From NCBI RefSeq assembly GCF_054482525.1, contig NZ_CM137006.1: a stretch of DNA of 64,000 nucleotides; one strand, 5' to 3'. Made by a program: the position numbers. The first letter of the stretch is position 1. Each line of letters opens with the position of its first letter. Of this stretch, positions 12,001 to 18,000 are shown one piece after another.

Positions 12001-15000
12001 TGATCCGGGCCGATTGTTACCCTATGACAAGAGGGATTGCTACAAATATATGTAGCGCGCTCTGCTACCTTACCTACAACGCTTGGAGGAAAGTTGTGCC
12101 TATTTGTCTTGGTCATAAAAGTTATGCTTCTTTGTTTTTTTCATCTATGTGGGGAGAATAAAATCATACTTTTTATATCTGATCCTAGGTCTGACCAGCA
12201 ACCTATTGATCAAAAAACCAAGATATTAGCTAAAAAAAATCAGCATACTTGAGACCAAGCTCAATGTCCGCTCCTCGCTCAAAGCAGACCATTCGCTCAG
12301 TTAACGCATCAGTGTCGTGCTAAAAGTAGACGTGGTTAACAACAATGTGAGTTAATCAACGGAGAGCAGGTCAACTCTAACCTGTATCAAAAAAACAAAT
12401 GTGTCACAAAGATGCCGCATGCCTTAATTTGAGTATAATTGAGACGGAAGTAGACGGTTTATGGCTAAATATTGTTGATATATAGCTATTTGAAGAGTTG
12501 TAGCGCAAGTGTATAGCCCAAACTAATAACGCTACGCCCCTTACCTTTGACGCCTCTTATCAAAGAGCGGCGATGATGCACAGCCCGCACGAGGCAATAT
12601 TCGCACAAGAATCAGGTTCAGAAATAACCTGATCTGGCATGGTGGGGAGAGTATCACTGAGCAGGCTTTCGGTAAAATGCGGCGGGATGAGGTCGGCGTG
12701 GGTTGCAGCAGTACAATGTCGCCCGCAGAGGGTAAGCCACAGCGCGGGATCCTCGGTTTCTATCAGGGATTCGACGAAGTGGGCGCAGTTGTCGACCAAG
12801 GCGGTGAAATCCATAGTGACATTATAAGGAAACGAACAATAGATCGAGTAAATCGCAGTCAGGGACAAGGATTGTAGTCATAGAGAAGTCTCCTGTAACG
12901 GTTTTCAGGAAGCTAATCCCGACGCCTGATTTTGCAGGCGCGGAAGGAGAAGATACTGCGGCCATTAATCCGCCACAAGGCATTTACGTGCATAAATCGC
13001 GCAGTCAAATCCGACTCCCACTGTAGTTCTTGAACCTGATACCACATTTAGCTAATTTAGCTAACTTATCTATTATACCAGTGGTTGCCATGAATATGAA
13101 TGAAGACGAGATTTATCGCCATATCCGGCAGGCACTTTCCAGTGCGCCTCGTAACCAGTACACCGTCGAGCTGCACCTGCAAATGATTAAATATGCCGAC
13201 AAACTGGAACACATTACGGCAAAAGCCTTTTGCGAAGGCACTGGTCTGAACCAGAGCCTCGGTACCGAATTCAGCAAAATGCGTAACTTAACCCATCGGT
13301 TAAAGGCCGCCGGTCTGAATACCGATCTGCTGTAACCGACTTACGGCACATTATCGCGCAAAACGAGATATTTAATGGCTATCAAAAAAACCGAACTCTA
13401 TTCTTCCCTGTGGGCAAGCTGCGACGAACTGCGTGGCGGGATGGACGCCAGCCAGTACAAAGACTATGTACTGACCCTGCTGTTTATGAAGTACGTTTCC
13501 GATAAGTATAAAGGCGATCCTTACGGGATGATCGTGATACCCAAAGGAGCCAGCTTTGACGATATGGTTGCGCTGAAAAATGACAAAGAGATCGGCGACA
13601 AAATCAACAAAATCATCCACAAGCTGGCGGAAGAGAACGGCCTGAAGGGCGTCATCGACGAAGCCGACTTTAACGACGAAGATAAGCTCGGCAAAGGCAA
13701 GGAAATGATTGACCGCCTGAGCAAGCTTGTCGGTATCTTTGAAGGGTTAAATCTCTCCAGCAACCGGGCCGAAGGCGACGATCTGCTGGGCGATGCCTAT
13801 GAATATCTGATGCGTCACTTCGCAACCGAATCCGGTAAGAGTAAAGGGCAGTTTTACACTCCAGCGGAGGTGTCACGTATTCTGGCGAAGGTGATTGGTA
13901 TTACTCCCGATACTCCGCAAGATGCAACGGTTTATGACCCAACCTGTGGCTCTGGTTCGCTGCTGTTGAAAGTGAATGATGAAGCCCGGCGCGGACTGTC
14001 GATTTTCGGCCAGGAGATGGATAACGCTACCAGTGCGCTGGCGCGGATGAACATGATTCTGCATAACAATGCCACCGCGAAAATCTGGCAGGGCAATACG
14101 CTGAGCGATCCGCAGTGGAAAGAGGCGAACGGCAAACTGAAAGCCTTCGATTTTGCCGTGGCGAACCCGCCTTTTTCCAATAAAAACTGGACCAACGGGC
14201 TGACGCCGAAAAAAGATCCGTTTGAACGCTTCGGCTGGGGTATTCCGCCGGAAAAAAACGGCGATTATGCTTTTTTGTTGCATATCATTAAAAGCCTGAA
14301 AAGTACCGGCAAAGGCGCGGTGATCCTGCCCCACGGCGTACTGTTTCGCGGTAACGCCGAAGCGAATATCCGTGAAAATCTAATCAAGCAGGGCTATATC
14401 AAAGGCGTTATTGGTTTGCCAGCCAACCTGTTTTACGGCACCGGCATCCCGGCGTGCATCATTGTGATTGATAAAGAGCACGCCCACAGCCGCAAAGGCA
14501 TTTTTATGATCGACGCCAGCCGGGGCTTTATCAAAGATGGCAACAAGAACCGCCTGCGTAGCCGAGATATTCACCGCATTGTGGACGTGTTCAACCATCA
14601 GCGAACGGTACCTGGCTACAGCCGGATGGTGCCCTCCAGCGAGATCGCCGGAAATGATTACAACCTGAATATTCCTCGCTATATCGAGAGCGGCGAGCCG
14701 GAAGATTTACACGATCTGACCGCGCACTTACAGGGCGGTATTCCGGCACGCGATGTGGATGCTTTGCAAGATTACTGGCGGGTATTCCCTGCCCTGCGCA
14801 ACGTGCTGTTTGCTGACGACCGTCCCGGTTACTGTCGGGCGCAGGTGAACGCGCAACAGGTGAAACCGACCATTCTGGCGCATCAGGAGTTTAAGGATTT
14901 TGCCACCCGCAGCCTGCTACCGTTTAAAGCGTGGGTGAAAGAGGCAAGTCTGGAAGAGATTCGCAAAGGTGATAAACCCAAAGCGCTAATCCACGATATC

Positions 15001-18000
15001 AGCGAAATGCTATTGGCGCAGTACGCCAACAGTGAGTTGCTGAACAAATACAGCGTGTACCAGATCCTGATGGATTACTGGACTGATGTCATGCAAGACG
15101 ATGTGTATGCGATTATGCAGGATGGCTGGCAAGCCGCCGCGCAAATCCGCGAGCTTCAGCCGGTGAAAGGCAAAGATGGCAAAAACATCTGGAAAGAAAC
15201 GCACGATTTCGAGTTTACCAAACGGCGCTACAAGGCCGATGTGCTGCCCCGTTCGCTGGTGGAAATTCGCTGTTTCCCGGAACTGCTGGATGCGCTGAAC
15301 CGCGCGCAGGAGCGCAGTGAAGAAGCCAGTCGTCAGCTAGTGGAATTCATCGAGGAGCAGGCAGGTGAAGAGGATCTGCTGGCCGAGGCGAAGAACGATA
15401 AAGATAAGGTGACGCAAAAGCTGGTGAATGCCCGTCTAGCACAGTTAAAGAAAACCACTGCCGGCCCAGATGAGCTGGCAGTGCTGAACCGCTGCCTGGC
15501 GCTAATTAAGGCCGAAGCCAGTGCGAAAAAAGCGCTGAAAGCCGCACAAGAAGCGCTGGATCGGGCGGTGTTTAAACATTATCCCACGCTGGATGAAGCA
15601 GCGATTAAAACGCTGGTAGTGCAGGATAAGTGGCTGGCAACGTTGCAGGCAGGGATCAAGGCGGAGATTGAGCGTATTACCCAGCAACTGGCGTCGCGCG
15701 TAAAGGAGCTGGAAGAGCGTTATGCTGAACCGTTGCTAGCGCTTGAAGCCTCCGTTGAGGCGTTGAGCGAGAAAGTGGCCGAGCATTTGCGGGCGATGGG
15801 GCTGGAGTGGTGATGGTGGATTTAATGGTGAATGAGCAACGGTCGAGTACGGCGGGGAAAGATGTGCCTGCGGGGTATAAACTGACTGAGGTGGGCGTGA
15901 TTCCTGAGGATTGGGATTGCGTACCATTTGGTAATCTGTTTAAAACAAACACAAAGAAAAAAAAAGTCAGCGATTATGAGCTAGTTTCATTTATTGGGAT
16001 GCAAGATGTTAGTGAAGATGCACAATTAAAAAATAATACTCAACTTCCTTTTAAAGAAGTTAAAAGTGGTTTTACTTACTTTGAAAAAGGGGATGTTTTA
16101 TTAGCTAAAATAACCCCTTGTTTTGAAAATGGAAAAGGATGTCATACCGCTGATTTACCTACTAATGTAGGTTTTGGGAGTACGGAATTTCATGTATTAA
16201 GGGAAAATGAAGACTCCGATTCTCGCTTCATCTATTTTTGGACAACTGATAAAAAATTCAGAGCATCACTGGAATCTGAAATGGTGGGAAGTGCGGGACA
16301 CCGTCGTGTGCCGCTAGTTGCTATAGAAAAATATTTGATTCCATGTCCCCCAAATTTGCAAGAGCAAAGTGCTATTGCTGATTCATTATCTGATATTAAT
16401 AATTTTATTCTAGCTCTAGAAAAGCTTATCGTTAAAAAACAAGCCATTAAAACCGCTACTATGCAGCGACTACTGACTGGTAAAACCCGTTTGCCACAGT
16501 TTGCGTTGCGCAAAGATGGCTCTGCTAAGGGATATAAAAAGAGCGAGTTGGGGGAGATTCCTGAAGATTGGAATTGTATTAATCTTGGTGAGCTAGGTAA
16601 TTGCATTATTGGGTTAACTTACAAACCTGAAGATACATCTGATTATGGTACATTGGTATTACGCTCATCCAACATTCAAAATAATCACTTAGCTTATGAT
16701 GATAACGTCTTCGTCAGCATAGAACCACCTGAGCGCACAATTGTGAAAGAAGGTGATATCTTGGTATGTGTAAGAAATGGCAGTCGCCAACTTATTGGCA
16801 AATGCGCATTAATTGACAAAAATGCGCAGGGCTCAGCATTCGGTGCATTTATGTCAGTATTCCGAACTGATATATATGGATTTACATTTCACCAATTCCA
16901 GTCTGATATTATTCAAAAGCAAATCGCTGAAGTTATGGGTGCCACTATCAATCAGATAACTAACAAAGATATGTTGGGCTTTAAAATCCCATTACCTGAA
17001 AATACAGAAGAACAAGCCGCCATCGCCGCCATCCTCTCCGATATGGACAAGGAAATCCAGATCCTGCAACAGCGTCTGGACAAAACCCGCCAGCTTAAGC
17101 AAGGGATGATGCAGGAACTGTTAACCGGGAAAATCCGCTTAATATAGAAGGGAAAGCACATGGCTTATGATTACAGCGCCAGCCTCAACCCGCAAAAAGC
17201 TCTGATCTGGCGTATCGTCCATCGGGACAATATCCCGTGGATTCTGGATAACGGGCTGCACTGCGGCAACAGTCTGGTGCAGGCGGAAAACTGGATCAAT
17301 ATCGGCAACCCGGAGCTGATCGGCAAGCGTGCCGGGCATCCGGTACCTGTCGGAACGGGCGGGACACTGCATGACTATGTGCCGTTTTATTTTACCCCCT
17401 TCTCGCCAATGCTGATGAACATCCACAGCGGGCGCGGCGGCATTAAGCAACGCCCCAATGAGGAGATCGTTATTCTGGTCAGCAACTTGCGAAACGTGGC
17501 AGCACACGACGTACCCTTCGTGTTTACCGACAGCCATGCTTACTATAACTGGACCAACTACTACACCAGTCTGGATAGTCTGGACCAGATCGACTGGCCC
17601 ATTTTGCAGGCACGGGACTTTCGCCGCGATCCAGACGATCCGGCTAAATTTGAACGCTATCAGGCAGAGGCGCTAATCTGGCAACACTGCCCGATCTCTC
17701 TGCTGGATGGGATAATTTGTTACAGCGAAGAGGTCAGGTTACAATTAGAACAATGGCTGTTTCAGCGTAATCTAACAATGTCCGTTCACACACGGGCTGG
17801 ATGGTACTTCTCATGATCACATATACACAAGGCAATTTACTGGACGCACCGGTGGAAGCTCTGGTGAATACGGTTAATACCGTCGGTGTCATGGGGAAAG
17901 GCATCGCGTTGATGTTTAAAGAGCGCTTCCCCGAAAATATGAAAGTCTATGCCCTCGCCTGCAAACAAAAGCAGGTGATCACCGGCAAAATGTTCATTAC

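What the first reader, a model, noticed from the sequence alone, without database searches (positions are those of the whole stretch)
13375..15813. Unusually long HsdM (812 aa) with a C-terminal coiled-coil extension
The methyltransferase core ends around residue 540; the remaining ~270 aa are charged and helical (...KALKAAQEALDRAVFKHYP...KAEIERITQQLASRVKELEERYAEPLLALEASVEALSEKVAEHLRAMGLEW). This may be an added interaction or regulatory domain.
Basis: seen in the sequence. Interest (0 to 1): 0.3.

Follow-up and report, generated by a model that had tools for sequence, protein, structure and literature searches.

The report
Long HsdM: built-in M-to-S connector module
The 812-residue methylase subunit is real, but its long tail is the normal, already recognised C-terminal half of a widespread family of type I restriction enzymes, most likely linking the methylase to its DNA-recognition partner rather than being a special add-on here.

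Summary
The ORF (13375-15813, +, 812 aa) is confirmed. Similarity to all solved or classical HsdM proteins stops at residue ~450, not ~540. The extension is therefore ~365 aa. Residues 446-680 form a globular alpha/beta part. Residues 681-812 form helices with a conserved heptad pattern.

The extension folds with very high confidence (pLDDT 97) and matches no Pfam family and no solved structure. It is not peculiar to this locus:
- A PADLOC type I methylase model of 810 positions matches it end to end.
- 2235 protein clusters across many phyla carry it.
- It is fused to HsdM in most bacteria, as here.
- It is a separate ~355-aa gene between hsdM and hsdS in cyanobacteria (Synechocystis Slr6096, published as the "C-terminal portion of the M subunit"; its disruption abolished methylation).
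- It is fused onward to a recognition (TRD) domain in ~1014-1037-aa M-S proteins that have no separate hsdS.

The locus is the published EPEC RptR-type I RM-DarTG-M48 defence island. Best reading: an integral, acidic M-to-S connector whose coiled-coil tail takes the role of the short HsdS-binding tail of classical HsdM. The feature is already known, but its mechanism and structure are uncharacterised. Low-to-moderate interest.

The parts
13030..13075 (+). Island promoter/operator: TTGAAC (-35) at 13030-13035, TAGCTA at 13049-13054 and 13058-13063, and a degenerate third copy
   Evidence: Sequence read. It matches the -35 box, the AGCTAATTT -10 boxes and the TAGCTA RptR sites described for the EPEC island in PMC12255303.
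13096..13335 (+). rptR (HTH_73 repressor of the island)
   Evidence: Pfam HTH_73 E 3.5e-28. Annotated as an HTH-like protein in the 100%-identical E. coli record. RptR is described in PMC12255303.
13375..15813 (+). hsdM, 812 aa, whole gene including the stop codon
   Evidence: ORF and translation. TIGR00497 hsdM scores 282.8 bits against a cut-off of 242.75. PADLOC PDLC03027 matches end to end.
13402..13737 (+). HsdM N-terminal domain (residues 10-121)
   Evidence: Pfam PF12161 E 2.4e-17.
13777..14697 (+). N6-adenine methyltransferase catalytic domain (residues 135-441; DPTCGSGSLL and NPPF motifs)
   Evidence: Pfam PF02384 E 6.7e-104. Motifs are visible in the translation. Solved HsdMs align up to residue ~450.
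14710..14844 (+). Adaptor segment (residues 446-490): short helices plus a beta-hairpin. In split cyanobacterial systems it stays on the methylase polypeptide.
   Evidence: DSSP of the model. Slr6095 (512 aa) aligns through 'D.TAHL.GGIP' and ends about here.
14845..15414 (+). Globular alpha/beta part of the module (residues 491-680), including the near-invariant YW..MQDDVY...DGW motif (W569, D575, D576, G584)
   Evidence: Model pLDDT 97. Conservation. The homologous region in Slr6096 starts at profile position 48.
15415..15810 (+). Coiled-coil tail (residues 681-812): helices 698-738, 741-783 and 787-807. Invariant W753 and Y783; motif ERY..PLP.L...V..L...V..HL..MG.
15813..17147 (+). hsdS (two TRDs). 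Its ATG overlaps the hsdM TGA (TGATG).
   Evidence: Pfam Methylase_S with 2 stretches. Junction sequence. PGAP start in the identical record. Alignment of subfamily HsdS proteins.
17160..17816 (+). darT (embedded toxin)
   Evidence: NCBIfam toxin_DarT 262.6 bits against a cut-off of 150.
17801..18880 (+). darG (embedded antitoxin)
   Evidence: NCBIfam antitoxin_DarG 451 bits against a cut-off of 250. WP_000634203.1 is identical to the EPEC DarG accession in PMC12255303.
18899..21994 (+). hsdR (1031 aa)
   Evidence: TIGR00348 545.6 bits; HSDR_N, SWI2_SNF2 and T1R_D3-like domains.
21994..22710 (+). YgjP-like/M48 metallopeptidase, the last gene of the island
   Evidence: Pfam PF01863 E 1.4e-61. 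WP_001122107.1 is identical to the accession in PMC12255303.

Best explanation
Residues ~446-812 are not an optional appendage. They are the standard C-terminal half of a widespread 'long-M' subfamily of type I restriction-modification methylases. The best-supported role is a protein-protein connector between the catalytic HsdM core and the specificity subunit HsdS.

Proposed arrangement:
- A short adaptor segment (446-490) and an acidic globular part (491-680) pack on the methylase.
- A heptad coiled-coil tail (681-812) takes over the job of the short C-terminal helical tail of classical HsdM, namely bundling with the HsdS conserved-region helices to assemble M2S1.

Shown: the domain boundaries, the confident fold, its conservation, its occurrence as split, fused and doubly fused forms, and published loss of methylation when the split homologue is disrupted.

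Inferred: that the tail is the HsdS-binding element, and that the module has no role specific to DarTG.
For: 1. Subfamily-wide feature. PADLOC MTase_I PDLC03027 (810 positions) matches residues 1-812 end to end, and PDLC03022 and PDLC03031 also cover the extension. The extension alone finds 2235 clusters at E<=1e-3 and 236 at E<=1e-30, starting at ~445-460 of 780-1050-aa proteins. It occurs on plasmids of Proteobacteria, Cyanobacteria, Actinobacteria, Deinococcus and Firmicutes, always annotated as a type I M subunit or DNA methyltransferase. It is also seen in a Helicobacter-like locus, inferred only from neighbouring gene families, and in the V. cholerae VPI-2 T1RM context, a system shown to methylate GATGN6CTT (PMC12409362).

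2. Autonomous, well-folded module. pLDDT is 97.0 and pTM 0.88 for the extension alone; the full length gives pTM 0.90.

3. Classical tail missing. Similarity to all solved HsdMs ends at ~450. The system is nevertheless functional in EPEC (PMC12255303).

4. Split form. Synechocystis Slr6095 (512 aa) is followed by Slr6096 (373 aa), which matches extension profile positions 48-367 at E 3.8e-19. About 355-aa standalone homologues are conserved in many cyanobacteria. They are separated from hsdM by another gene or by 735 nt.

5. Doubly fused form. M-extension-TRD proteins of 1014-1037 aa exist. P0180 is followed directly by hsdR with no separate hsdS.

6. Linear order. The module always lies between the catalytic domain and S, and here hsdM and hsdS overlap (TGATG).

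7. Tail properties. The tail has a conserved a/d heptad pattern. The module is acidic in 95% of 83 homologues, with mean net charge -16.5. This argues for protein contacts rather than DNA contacts.

8. Genetics. slr6096::Km lost all GGAN7TTGG methylation (0 of 1261 sites; PMC7296061).
Against: No direct evidence shows which surface contacts HsdS.

The tail shows no detectable sequence similarity to the C-terminal helices of short HsdMs or to HsdS conserved regions, so 'functional replacement' is an inference from position and composition.

The slr6096 knockout may be polar on slr6097, as its authors say.

The function of the ~235-aa globular part, which holds the most conserved motif (W569, D575, D576, G584), is unexplained by a pure connector model.
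Confidence: 0.62

Rival explanations
1. The extension is a docking or regulatory platform that couples the restriction enzyme to accessory proteins of the island. These could be the embedded DarT/DarG pair (as EcoprrI holds PrrC in check) or the YgjP-like M48 peptidase that follows hsdR.
For: Long-M or split loci often carry embedded genes between hsdS and hsdR: DarTG here, TgvAB-like GmrSD genes in V. cholerae, GIY-YIG, DUF262/RelE-HigA/Fic, ParDE/Zeta, and Uma2/PIN/HicAB. Every close long-M locus in which the region after hsdR was visible ends with a YgjP-like peptidase.
Against: Many long-M loci have no embedded gene at all (L002, L006-8, L024), and the embedded genes are unrelated to each other. 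The YgjP-like peptidase also accompanies a short 507-aa HsdM on Klebsiella plasmid pKp848CTX. YgjP homologues are on 505 plasmids against 60 for the extension, and a distant long-M system in S. salivarius lacks the peptidase. Embedding is common in type I systems generally (bioRxiv 10.1101/2024.01.29.577857).
Confidence: 0.1
2. The module mainly contacts HsdR or DNA. It could, for example, set the geometry of the R2M2S1 complex or sense methylation state, rather than bind HsdS.
For: The globular part carries the best-conserved motif, YW..MQDDVY...DGW, which a simple helical connector would not need. HsdR proteins of this subfamily are consistently ~990-1180 aa and co-inherited with the module.
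Against: The module is strongly acidic in 95% of homologues, which argues against DNA binding. Its position in split and fused forms is always next to S, never next to R. The single R-M chimera (P0248) has no locus data and may be an assembly or gene-call artefact.
Confidence: 0.12
3. The coiled-coil tail is a degenerate remnant of an HsdS conserved region (a half-S fused to M long ago).
For: A profile of alignment A2 hit the M. jannaschii HsdS structure 1yf2 at E 3.4e-6. The tail motif 'PLP.L...V..L' superficially recalls the 'P..EQ..I...L' start of HsdS conserved regions.
Against: Several A2 rows run on past the tail, some into HsdS sequence, and probably caused the 1yf2 hit; that alignment was not inspected. 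A clean tail-only profile of 52 sequences finds no HsdS at E<=10, only vimentin-type coiled coils. hhalign of the tail against subfamily HsdS gives probability 1.3%. Pfam Methylase_S is not detected in 445-812 even at E<=10.
Confidence: 0.03
4. The long ORF is an artefact: two genes merged by a sequencing or annotation error, or a recent accidental fusion in this strain.
For: Separate genes for the two halves do exist in cyanobacteria. Metagenomes hold many fragments that begin at the conserved Met566.
Against: The same uninterrupted 2439-nt ORF is present in 248 E. coli genomes. Equivalent 780-870-aa ORFs occur in many phyla. AlphaFold2 packs both halves into one confident model (pTM 0.90). 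In the two Met566 cases examined, the ORF lies 80 nt after an upstream ORF cut off by the contig start (L012) or next to an IS66 transposase (L013), which I read as gene remnants.
Confidence: 0.01

Closest known systems
M.Ssp6803V of Synechocystis sp. PCC 6803 (Slr6095 'M-n' + Slr6096 'M-c', with Slr6097 S and Slr6102 R; Wu, Wang & Xu 2020, PMC7296061)
   Same: The catalytic half is homologous: Slr6095 is 35% identical over residues 7-463. The C-terminal half is also homologous: Slr6096 matches extension profile positions 48-367 at E 3.8e-19 and ends with the same ...L..(M/L)G motif. The gene order M, module, S, R, YgjP-like peptidase is the same. The C-terminal portion is already described there as part of the M subunit, and its disruption abolished methylation.
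   Different: There the module is a separate polypeptide; here it is fused. Identity in the tail is only ~25%. The embedded genes differ (Fic and HigBA versus DarTG). The published knockout may be polar.
HsdM of the EPEC E2348/69 RRDM island (RptR-type I RM-DarTG2-M48; Zhang et al. 2025, PMC12255303)
   Same: It is the same seven-gene island, with the same promoter/operator elements. The DarG and M48 protein accessions are identical in the 100%-identical E. coli record. The island confers phage defence, and hsdM is induced on infection.
   Different: The HsdM and HsdR accessions differ (WP_000985465 versus WP_000985463; WP_000108735 versus WP_000108733), and the hsdS allele is different. The paper does not discuss the HsdM extension at all.
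HsdM (VC1769) of the Vibrio cholerae VPI-2 type I RM system
   Same: A V. cholerae homologue shares the whole extension at 56% identity. It lies in an M-S-[two GmrSD-like genes]-R-YgjP locus that matches the published VPI-2 T1RM/TgvAB region. That system actively methylates GATGN6CTT (PMC12409362).
   Different: The embedded genes are TgvAB-like rather than DarTG. The V. cholerae record I read is cut at the contig start, so its full length was not seen. I did not verify directly that this record is VC1769.
Classical HsdM subunits with solved structures (EcoR124I 520 aa, EcoKI 529 aa, S. thermophilus 3lkd 542 aa, PacII M1/M2)
   Same: They share the N-terminal helical domain and the N6-adenine catalytic domain: 3lkd E 1.4e-77, EcoR124I 1e-64, EcoKI 1e-21, Foldseek TM up to 0.82 on the target. 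They have the same partners, HsdS and HsdR.

Membership tests
Type I RM methyltransferase subunit HsdM | HsdM N-terminal helical domain followed by an N6-adenine MTase domain with SAM-binding and NPPF/NPPY catalytic motifs | tested here: met
   PF12161 E 2.4e-17 and PF02384 E 6.7e-104. DPTCGSGSLL and NPPF are visible in the translation. TIGR00497 scores 282.8 bits against a cut-off of 242.75.
Type I RM methyltransferase subunit HsdM | Encoded with cognate hsdS and hsdR genes | tested here: met
   hsdS at 15813-17147 overlaps the hsdM stop. hsdR at 18899-21994 scores 545.6 bits on TIGR00348.
Type I RM methyltransferase subunit HsdM | Forms M2S1 and methylates a bipartite target | not testable with these tools
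   Only indirect evidence: the EPEC island is active against phage, and homologous V. cholerae and Synechocystis systems methylate bipartite sites.
Long-M subfamily (PADLOC MTase_I PDLC03027; M.Ssp6803V-type M-n + M-c) | C-terminal ~320-365-aa module after the catalytic domain, homologous to Slr6096 | tested here: met
   PDLC03027 matches 1-812 to 1-810/810, and the extension alone scores E 2.5e-134. The extension profile hits Slr6096 at E 3.8e-19. 2235 clusters share it.
Long-M subfamily (PADLOC MTase_I PDLC03027; M.Ssp6803V-type M-n + M-c) | Synteny M(-module)-S-[optional inserts]-R-YgjP-like peptidase | tested here: met
   Seen in the window and in loci L002, L006-11, L017, L018, L023-25, L027 and L029. 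The peptidase is not exclusive to this subfamily.
Classical complementation families IA-IE | Subunit exchange or antibody cross-reaction with a family prototype (EcoKI, EcoAI, EcoR124I, StySBLI, KpnBI) | not testable with these tools
   Sequence only: the core is nearer to EcoR124I (E 1e-64) than to EcoKI (E 1e-21). No prototype of the tested families has the extension among solved structures. The lengths of StySBLI and KpnBI HsdM were not obtained.
HsdS conserved-region coiled coil (as origin of the tail) | Detectable homology of the tail to HsdS conserved regions | tested here: not met
   A clean tail profile finds no HsdS in the PDB. hhalign against subfamily HsdS gives probability 1.3%. 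The earlier 1yf2 hit probably came from alignment rows that run on past the tail, some into HsdS sequence.
RRDM defence island (RptR-RMS-DarTG-M48) | Seven ORFs in the order rptR, hsdM, hsdS, darT, darG, hsdR, M48, with TAGCTA operators in the promoter | tested here: met
   Domain assignments. Promoter sequence. DarG and M48 accessions identical to those in PMC12255303.

The most novel reading that the evidence does not exclude
The module is in effect a fourth structural subunit of this type I subfamily. It is free-standing in cyanobacteria and fused elsewhere. It would replace the classical HsdM tail and build an extended coiled-coil scaffold on HsdS. Its conserved acidic globular head (YW..MQDDVY...DGW) would provide an extra function absent from EcoKI/EcoR124I-type enzymes, such as docking the YgjP-like peptidase or embedded abortive-infection modules so that they sense the state of the restriction complex.
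Probability: 0.1. Interest if true: 0.6.

Novelty: already known. Interest (0 to 1): 0.25.

Why it matters
For this window it matters little. The gene is an ordinary member of a known, widely distributed long-M type I subfamily, inside an island already published as a phage-defence locus.

More generally, thousands of type I systems carry a ~365-aa, confidently folded module with no Pfam family and no solved relative. These include systems in EPEC and in V. cholerae, and one in a Helicobacter-like locus. All structural models of type I enzymes come from short-M systems. A structure of a long-M M2S1 would show a second way of joining M to S. It could also explain why this subfamily tolerates split, fused and M-S-fused forms.

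Tried and rejected
1. Pfam at E<=10 on residues 445-812 gave only sub-threshold noise.

3. The idea that the tail derives from HsdS was raised by a 1yf2 hit. Several A2 rows run on past the tail, some into HsdS sequence, and probably caused it. Clean-profile and hhalign tests rejected the idea.

4. The idea that the extension goes with DarTG or other embedded genes was rejected, because many long-M loci have no insert.

5. The idea that the extension goes specifically with the YgjP-like peptidase was rejected, because the peptidase also follows a short 507-aa HsdM system on a Klebsiella plasmid.

6. The ~250-aa 'proteins' starting at Met566 looked like a standalone family. In the two cases examined, the ORF lies 80 nt after an upstream ORF cut off by the contig start, or next to an IS66 transposase, which I read as gene remnants.

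7. Literature searches on an HsdM C-terminal extension, and on KpnBI/StySBLI, gave nothing about this module.

8. The afdb50 fold library was not available. Model coordinates could not be read, so no contact analysis was possible, and no structure jobs remained for a complex.

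
Full report
**The observation.** The ORF at 13375-15813 (+) is real and encodes 812 aa with the quoted C-terminal peptides. 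Pfam places HsdM_N at residues 10-121 and N6_Mtase at 135-441, and NCBIfam TIGR00497 (hsdM) is passed. Nothing credible is found for 445-812 even at E<=10. The gene is 100% identical to RefSeq WP_000985465.1 and occurs in 257 of 5426 complete E. coli genomes.

Alignments to every solved HsdM (3lkd, PacII M1/M2, EcoR124I, EcoKI and others) stop at residue ~445-450. The extension is therefore ~365 aa, not ~270.

**The surroundings.** The gene sits in a seven-gene operon:
- rptR (HTH_73)
- hsdM
- hsdS, whose ATG overlaps the hsdM TGA
- darT
- darG
- hsdR
- a YgjP-like M48 peptidase

This is the RRDM phage-defence island described in EPEC E2348/69 (PMC12255303). It has the same TTGAAC -35 box and TAGCTA operator repeats and identical DarG and M48 accessions. 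That paper shows the island is active and that hsdM is induced on infection. It says nothing about the HsdM extension.

**Anatomy of the extension.** AlphaFold2 with a 150-sequence alignment gives a very confident model: pLDDT 94.4 and pTM 0.90 for the full length, and pLDDT 97.0 and pTM 0.88 for 445-812 alone.
- Residues 446-680 are a globular mix of short and medium helices and five short strands.
- Residues 681-812 are dominated by long helices (698-738, 741-783, 787-807).

**Is it unusual?** Against EcoKI (529 aa) or EcoR124I (520 aa), yes. Within its own family, no.
- A PADLOC type I methylase model of 810 positions matches residues 1-812 end to end, and two further models (857 and 834 positions) also cover the extension.
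- The extension alone finds 2235 clusters (50% identity representatives) at E<=1e-3. In full-length proteins of 780-1050 aa the match begins at ~445-460.
- It occurs on plasmids of Gamma- and Alphaproteobacteria, Cyanobacteria, Actinobacteria, Deinococcus and Firmicutes, always in genes annotated as a type I M subunit or DNA methyltransferase.
- It occurs in a Helicobacter-like chromosome, inferred only from neighbouring gene families.
- It occurs in a V. cholerae locus that matches the VPI-2 T1RM/TgvAB region, a system known to methylate GATGN6CTT (PMC12409362).

**The key comparative result.** The same module exists in three covalent states.

1. *Fused to HsdM*, as here and in most bacteria.

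2. *Split.* On Synechocystis pSYSX a 512-aa methylase (Slr6095) aligns to residues 7-463 of the E. coli protein, including the first residues of the extension. It is followed by a 373-aa 'hypothetical' protein (Slr6096). Slr6096 matches extension profile positions 48-367 at E 3.8e-19 and ends with the same motif. Standalone ~355-aa homologues are conserved across Nostoc, Tolypothrix, Microcoleus and others. They are separated from hsdM by a Uma2 gene in Nostoc PCC 7524 or by 735 nt in Nostoc UHCC 0926. This is a stable two-gene arrangement, not a sequencing frameshift.

3. *Doubly fused.* Proteins of 1014-1037 aa carry HsdM_N, N6_Mtase, the extension and then a single Methylase_S recognition domain (TRD). 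The one whose locus I read (P0180) is followed directly by hsdR and the peptidase, with no separate hsdS.

In every state the module lies between the catalytic domain and S.

**What is already published.** Wu, Wang & Xu (2020, PMC7296061) noted, following REBASE, that Slr6095 and Slr6096 correspond to the N- and C-terminal portions of long M subunits. They named them M.Ssp6803V-n and -c. They showed that insertion mutants of slr6095, slr6096 or slr6097 each lose all GGAN7TTGG/CCAAN7TCC methylation (0 of 1261 sites), and they acknowledged possible polar effects. A survey of cyanobacterial coiled-coil-rich proteins independently picked Slr6096, and it formed no filaments in vitro (bioRxiv 10.1101/674176). 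The existence of the long M form and its C-terminal portion is therefore known. Its structure and mechanism are not.

**Most likely mechanism.** From established knowledge of the EcoKI and EcoR124I structures, classical HsdM binds HsdS through a short C-terminal helical tail that bundles with the HsdS conserved-region coiled coil. That tail is absent here, yet the system works. The evidence bearing on a replacement is:
- the split, fused and doubly fused series
- the constant M-module-S order
- the hsdM/hsdS overlap
- the conserved heptad tail
- the acidic composition
- the Synechocystis genetics

Together these best fit an integral M-to-S connector. The adaptor segment (446-490) and the globular part sit on the methylase, and the coiled-coil tail engages HsdS. 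I put this at about 0.6. The architecture and its conservation are shown. The contact with HsdS is inferred.

**Rivals.**
- *Docking platform for DarTG or the YgjP-like peptidase.* Many long-M loci have no embedded genes. The peptidase also follows a 507-aa HsdM system on a Klebsiella plasmid, and its homologues are on 505 plasmids against 60 for the extension.
- *HsdR or DNA contact.* This cannot be excluded for the globular part, but the acidity argues against DNA.
- *HsdS-derived tail.* This was suggested by a 1yf2 hit. Several alignment rows run on past the tail, some into HsdS sequence, and probably caused it; the idea failed clean tests.
- *Annotation artefact.* This is excluded by conservation of the intact ORF and by the single confident model.

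**Verdict.** What remains open is the fold and function of the module, for which no experimental structure exists.

Noticed in passing
window 21994-22710 (+); also L002, L003, L006-11, L017, L018, L022-25, L027, L029: A YgjP-like/SprT-like M48 metallopeptidase of ~230-250 aa sits directly after hsdR, often overlapping its stop, in type I systems from many phyla. It occurs with long, split and M-S-fused HsdM, and also with a short 507-aa HsdM on a Klebsiella plasmid. Its role in type I restriction appears undescribed in the papers I could search.
   Followed up: partly
L023 (Synechocystis pSYSX) 1449-4122; L025 6773-10071; L027 6683-10110: In cyanobacteria the HsdM C-terminal module is a separate ~355-373-aa gene annotated 'hypothetical protein'. 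In some records it is mislabelled 'restriction endonuclease subunit S' or 'SbcCD ATPase'. It is sometimes separated from hsdM by an inserted Uma2 gene.
   Followed up: yes
L029 376-3420; L005 1220-4315: In L029 a natural single-chain M-module-TRD protein (1014 aa, with a Methylase_S domain) is followed directly by hsdR, with no separate hsdS. This implies a symmetric (M-S)2-type enzyme within this subfamily. L005 holds a 1031-aa M-module protein with no Methylase_S hit, followed by an unannotated 969-aa gene.
   Followed up: partly
window 15811-15815: The hsdM stop and the hsdS start overlap (TGATG). This suggests translational coupling, as described for EcoKI hsdM/hsdS.
   Followed up: partly
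window 16000-16999: G+C drops to 37% inside hsdS, against ~51-53% in hsdM, darTG and hsdR. The hsdS allele also differs from the EPEC island, consistent with exchange of target-recognition domains.
   Followed up: no
window 13030-13075: The promoter has TTGAAC and two exact TAGCTA repeats plus a degenerate third copy upstream of rptR, matching the published RptR operator layout.
   Followed up: partly
window 23180-23659 (+) and 23902-25200 (-): An IS3-type integrase-core fragment lies directly after the island, followed by a DcuA/DcuB C4-dicarboxylate transporter gene. This probably marks the edge of the mobile region.
   Followed up: no
window 9379-12116: Three ORFs of 227-261 aa have no Pfam match (9379-10062 +, 10417-11202 +, 11364-12116 -). 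They lie in a low-G+C stretch (37-45%) just upstream of the island, and a GTPase-family ORF is at 7841-8752 (-).
   Followed up: no
P0191, P0218 and about ten other hits; L012, L013: Many metagenomic 'proteins' of ~240-260 aa start exactly at the conserved Met566 of the extension. In the two cases examined, the ORF lies 80 nt after an upstream ORF cut off by the contig start (L012) or next to an IS66 transposase (L013). I read them as remnants of hsdM genes, not a separate family.
   Followed up: yes
L012 1991-5279; L019 11222-16038; L018 11348-12295: The gap between hsdS and hsdR in this subfamily hosts varied inserts: ParDE, a Zeta toxin, DUF262/GmrSD, RelE-HigA, Fic and a GIY-YIG nuclease.
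   Followed up: no
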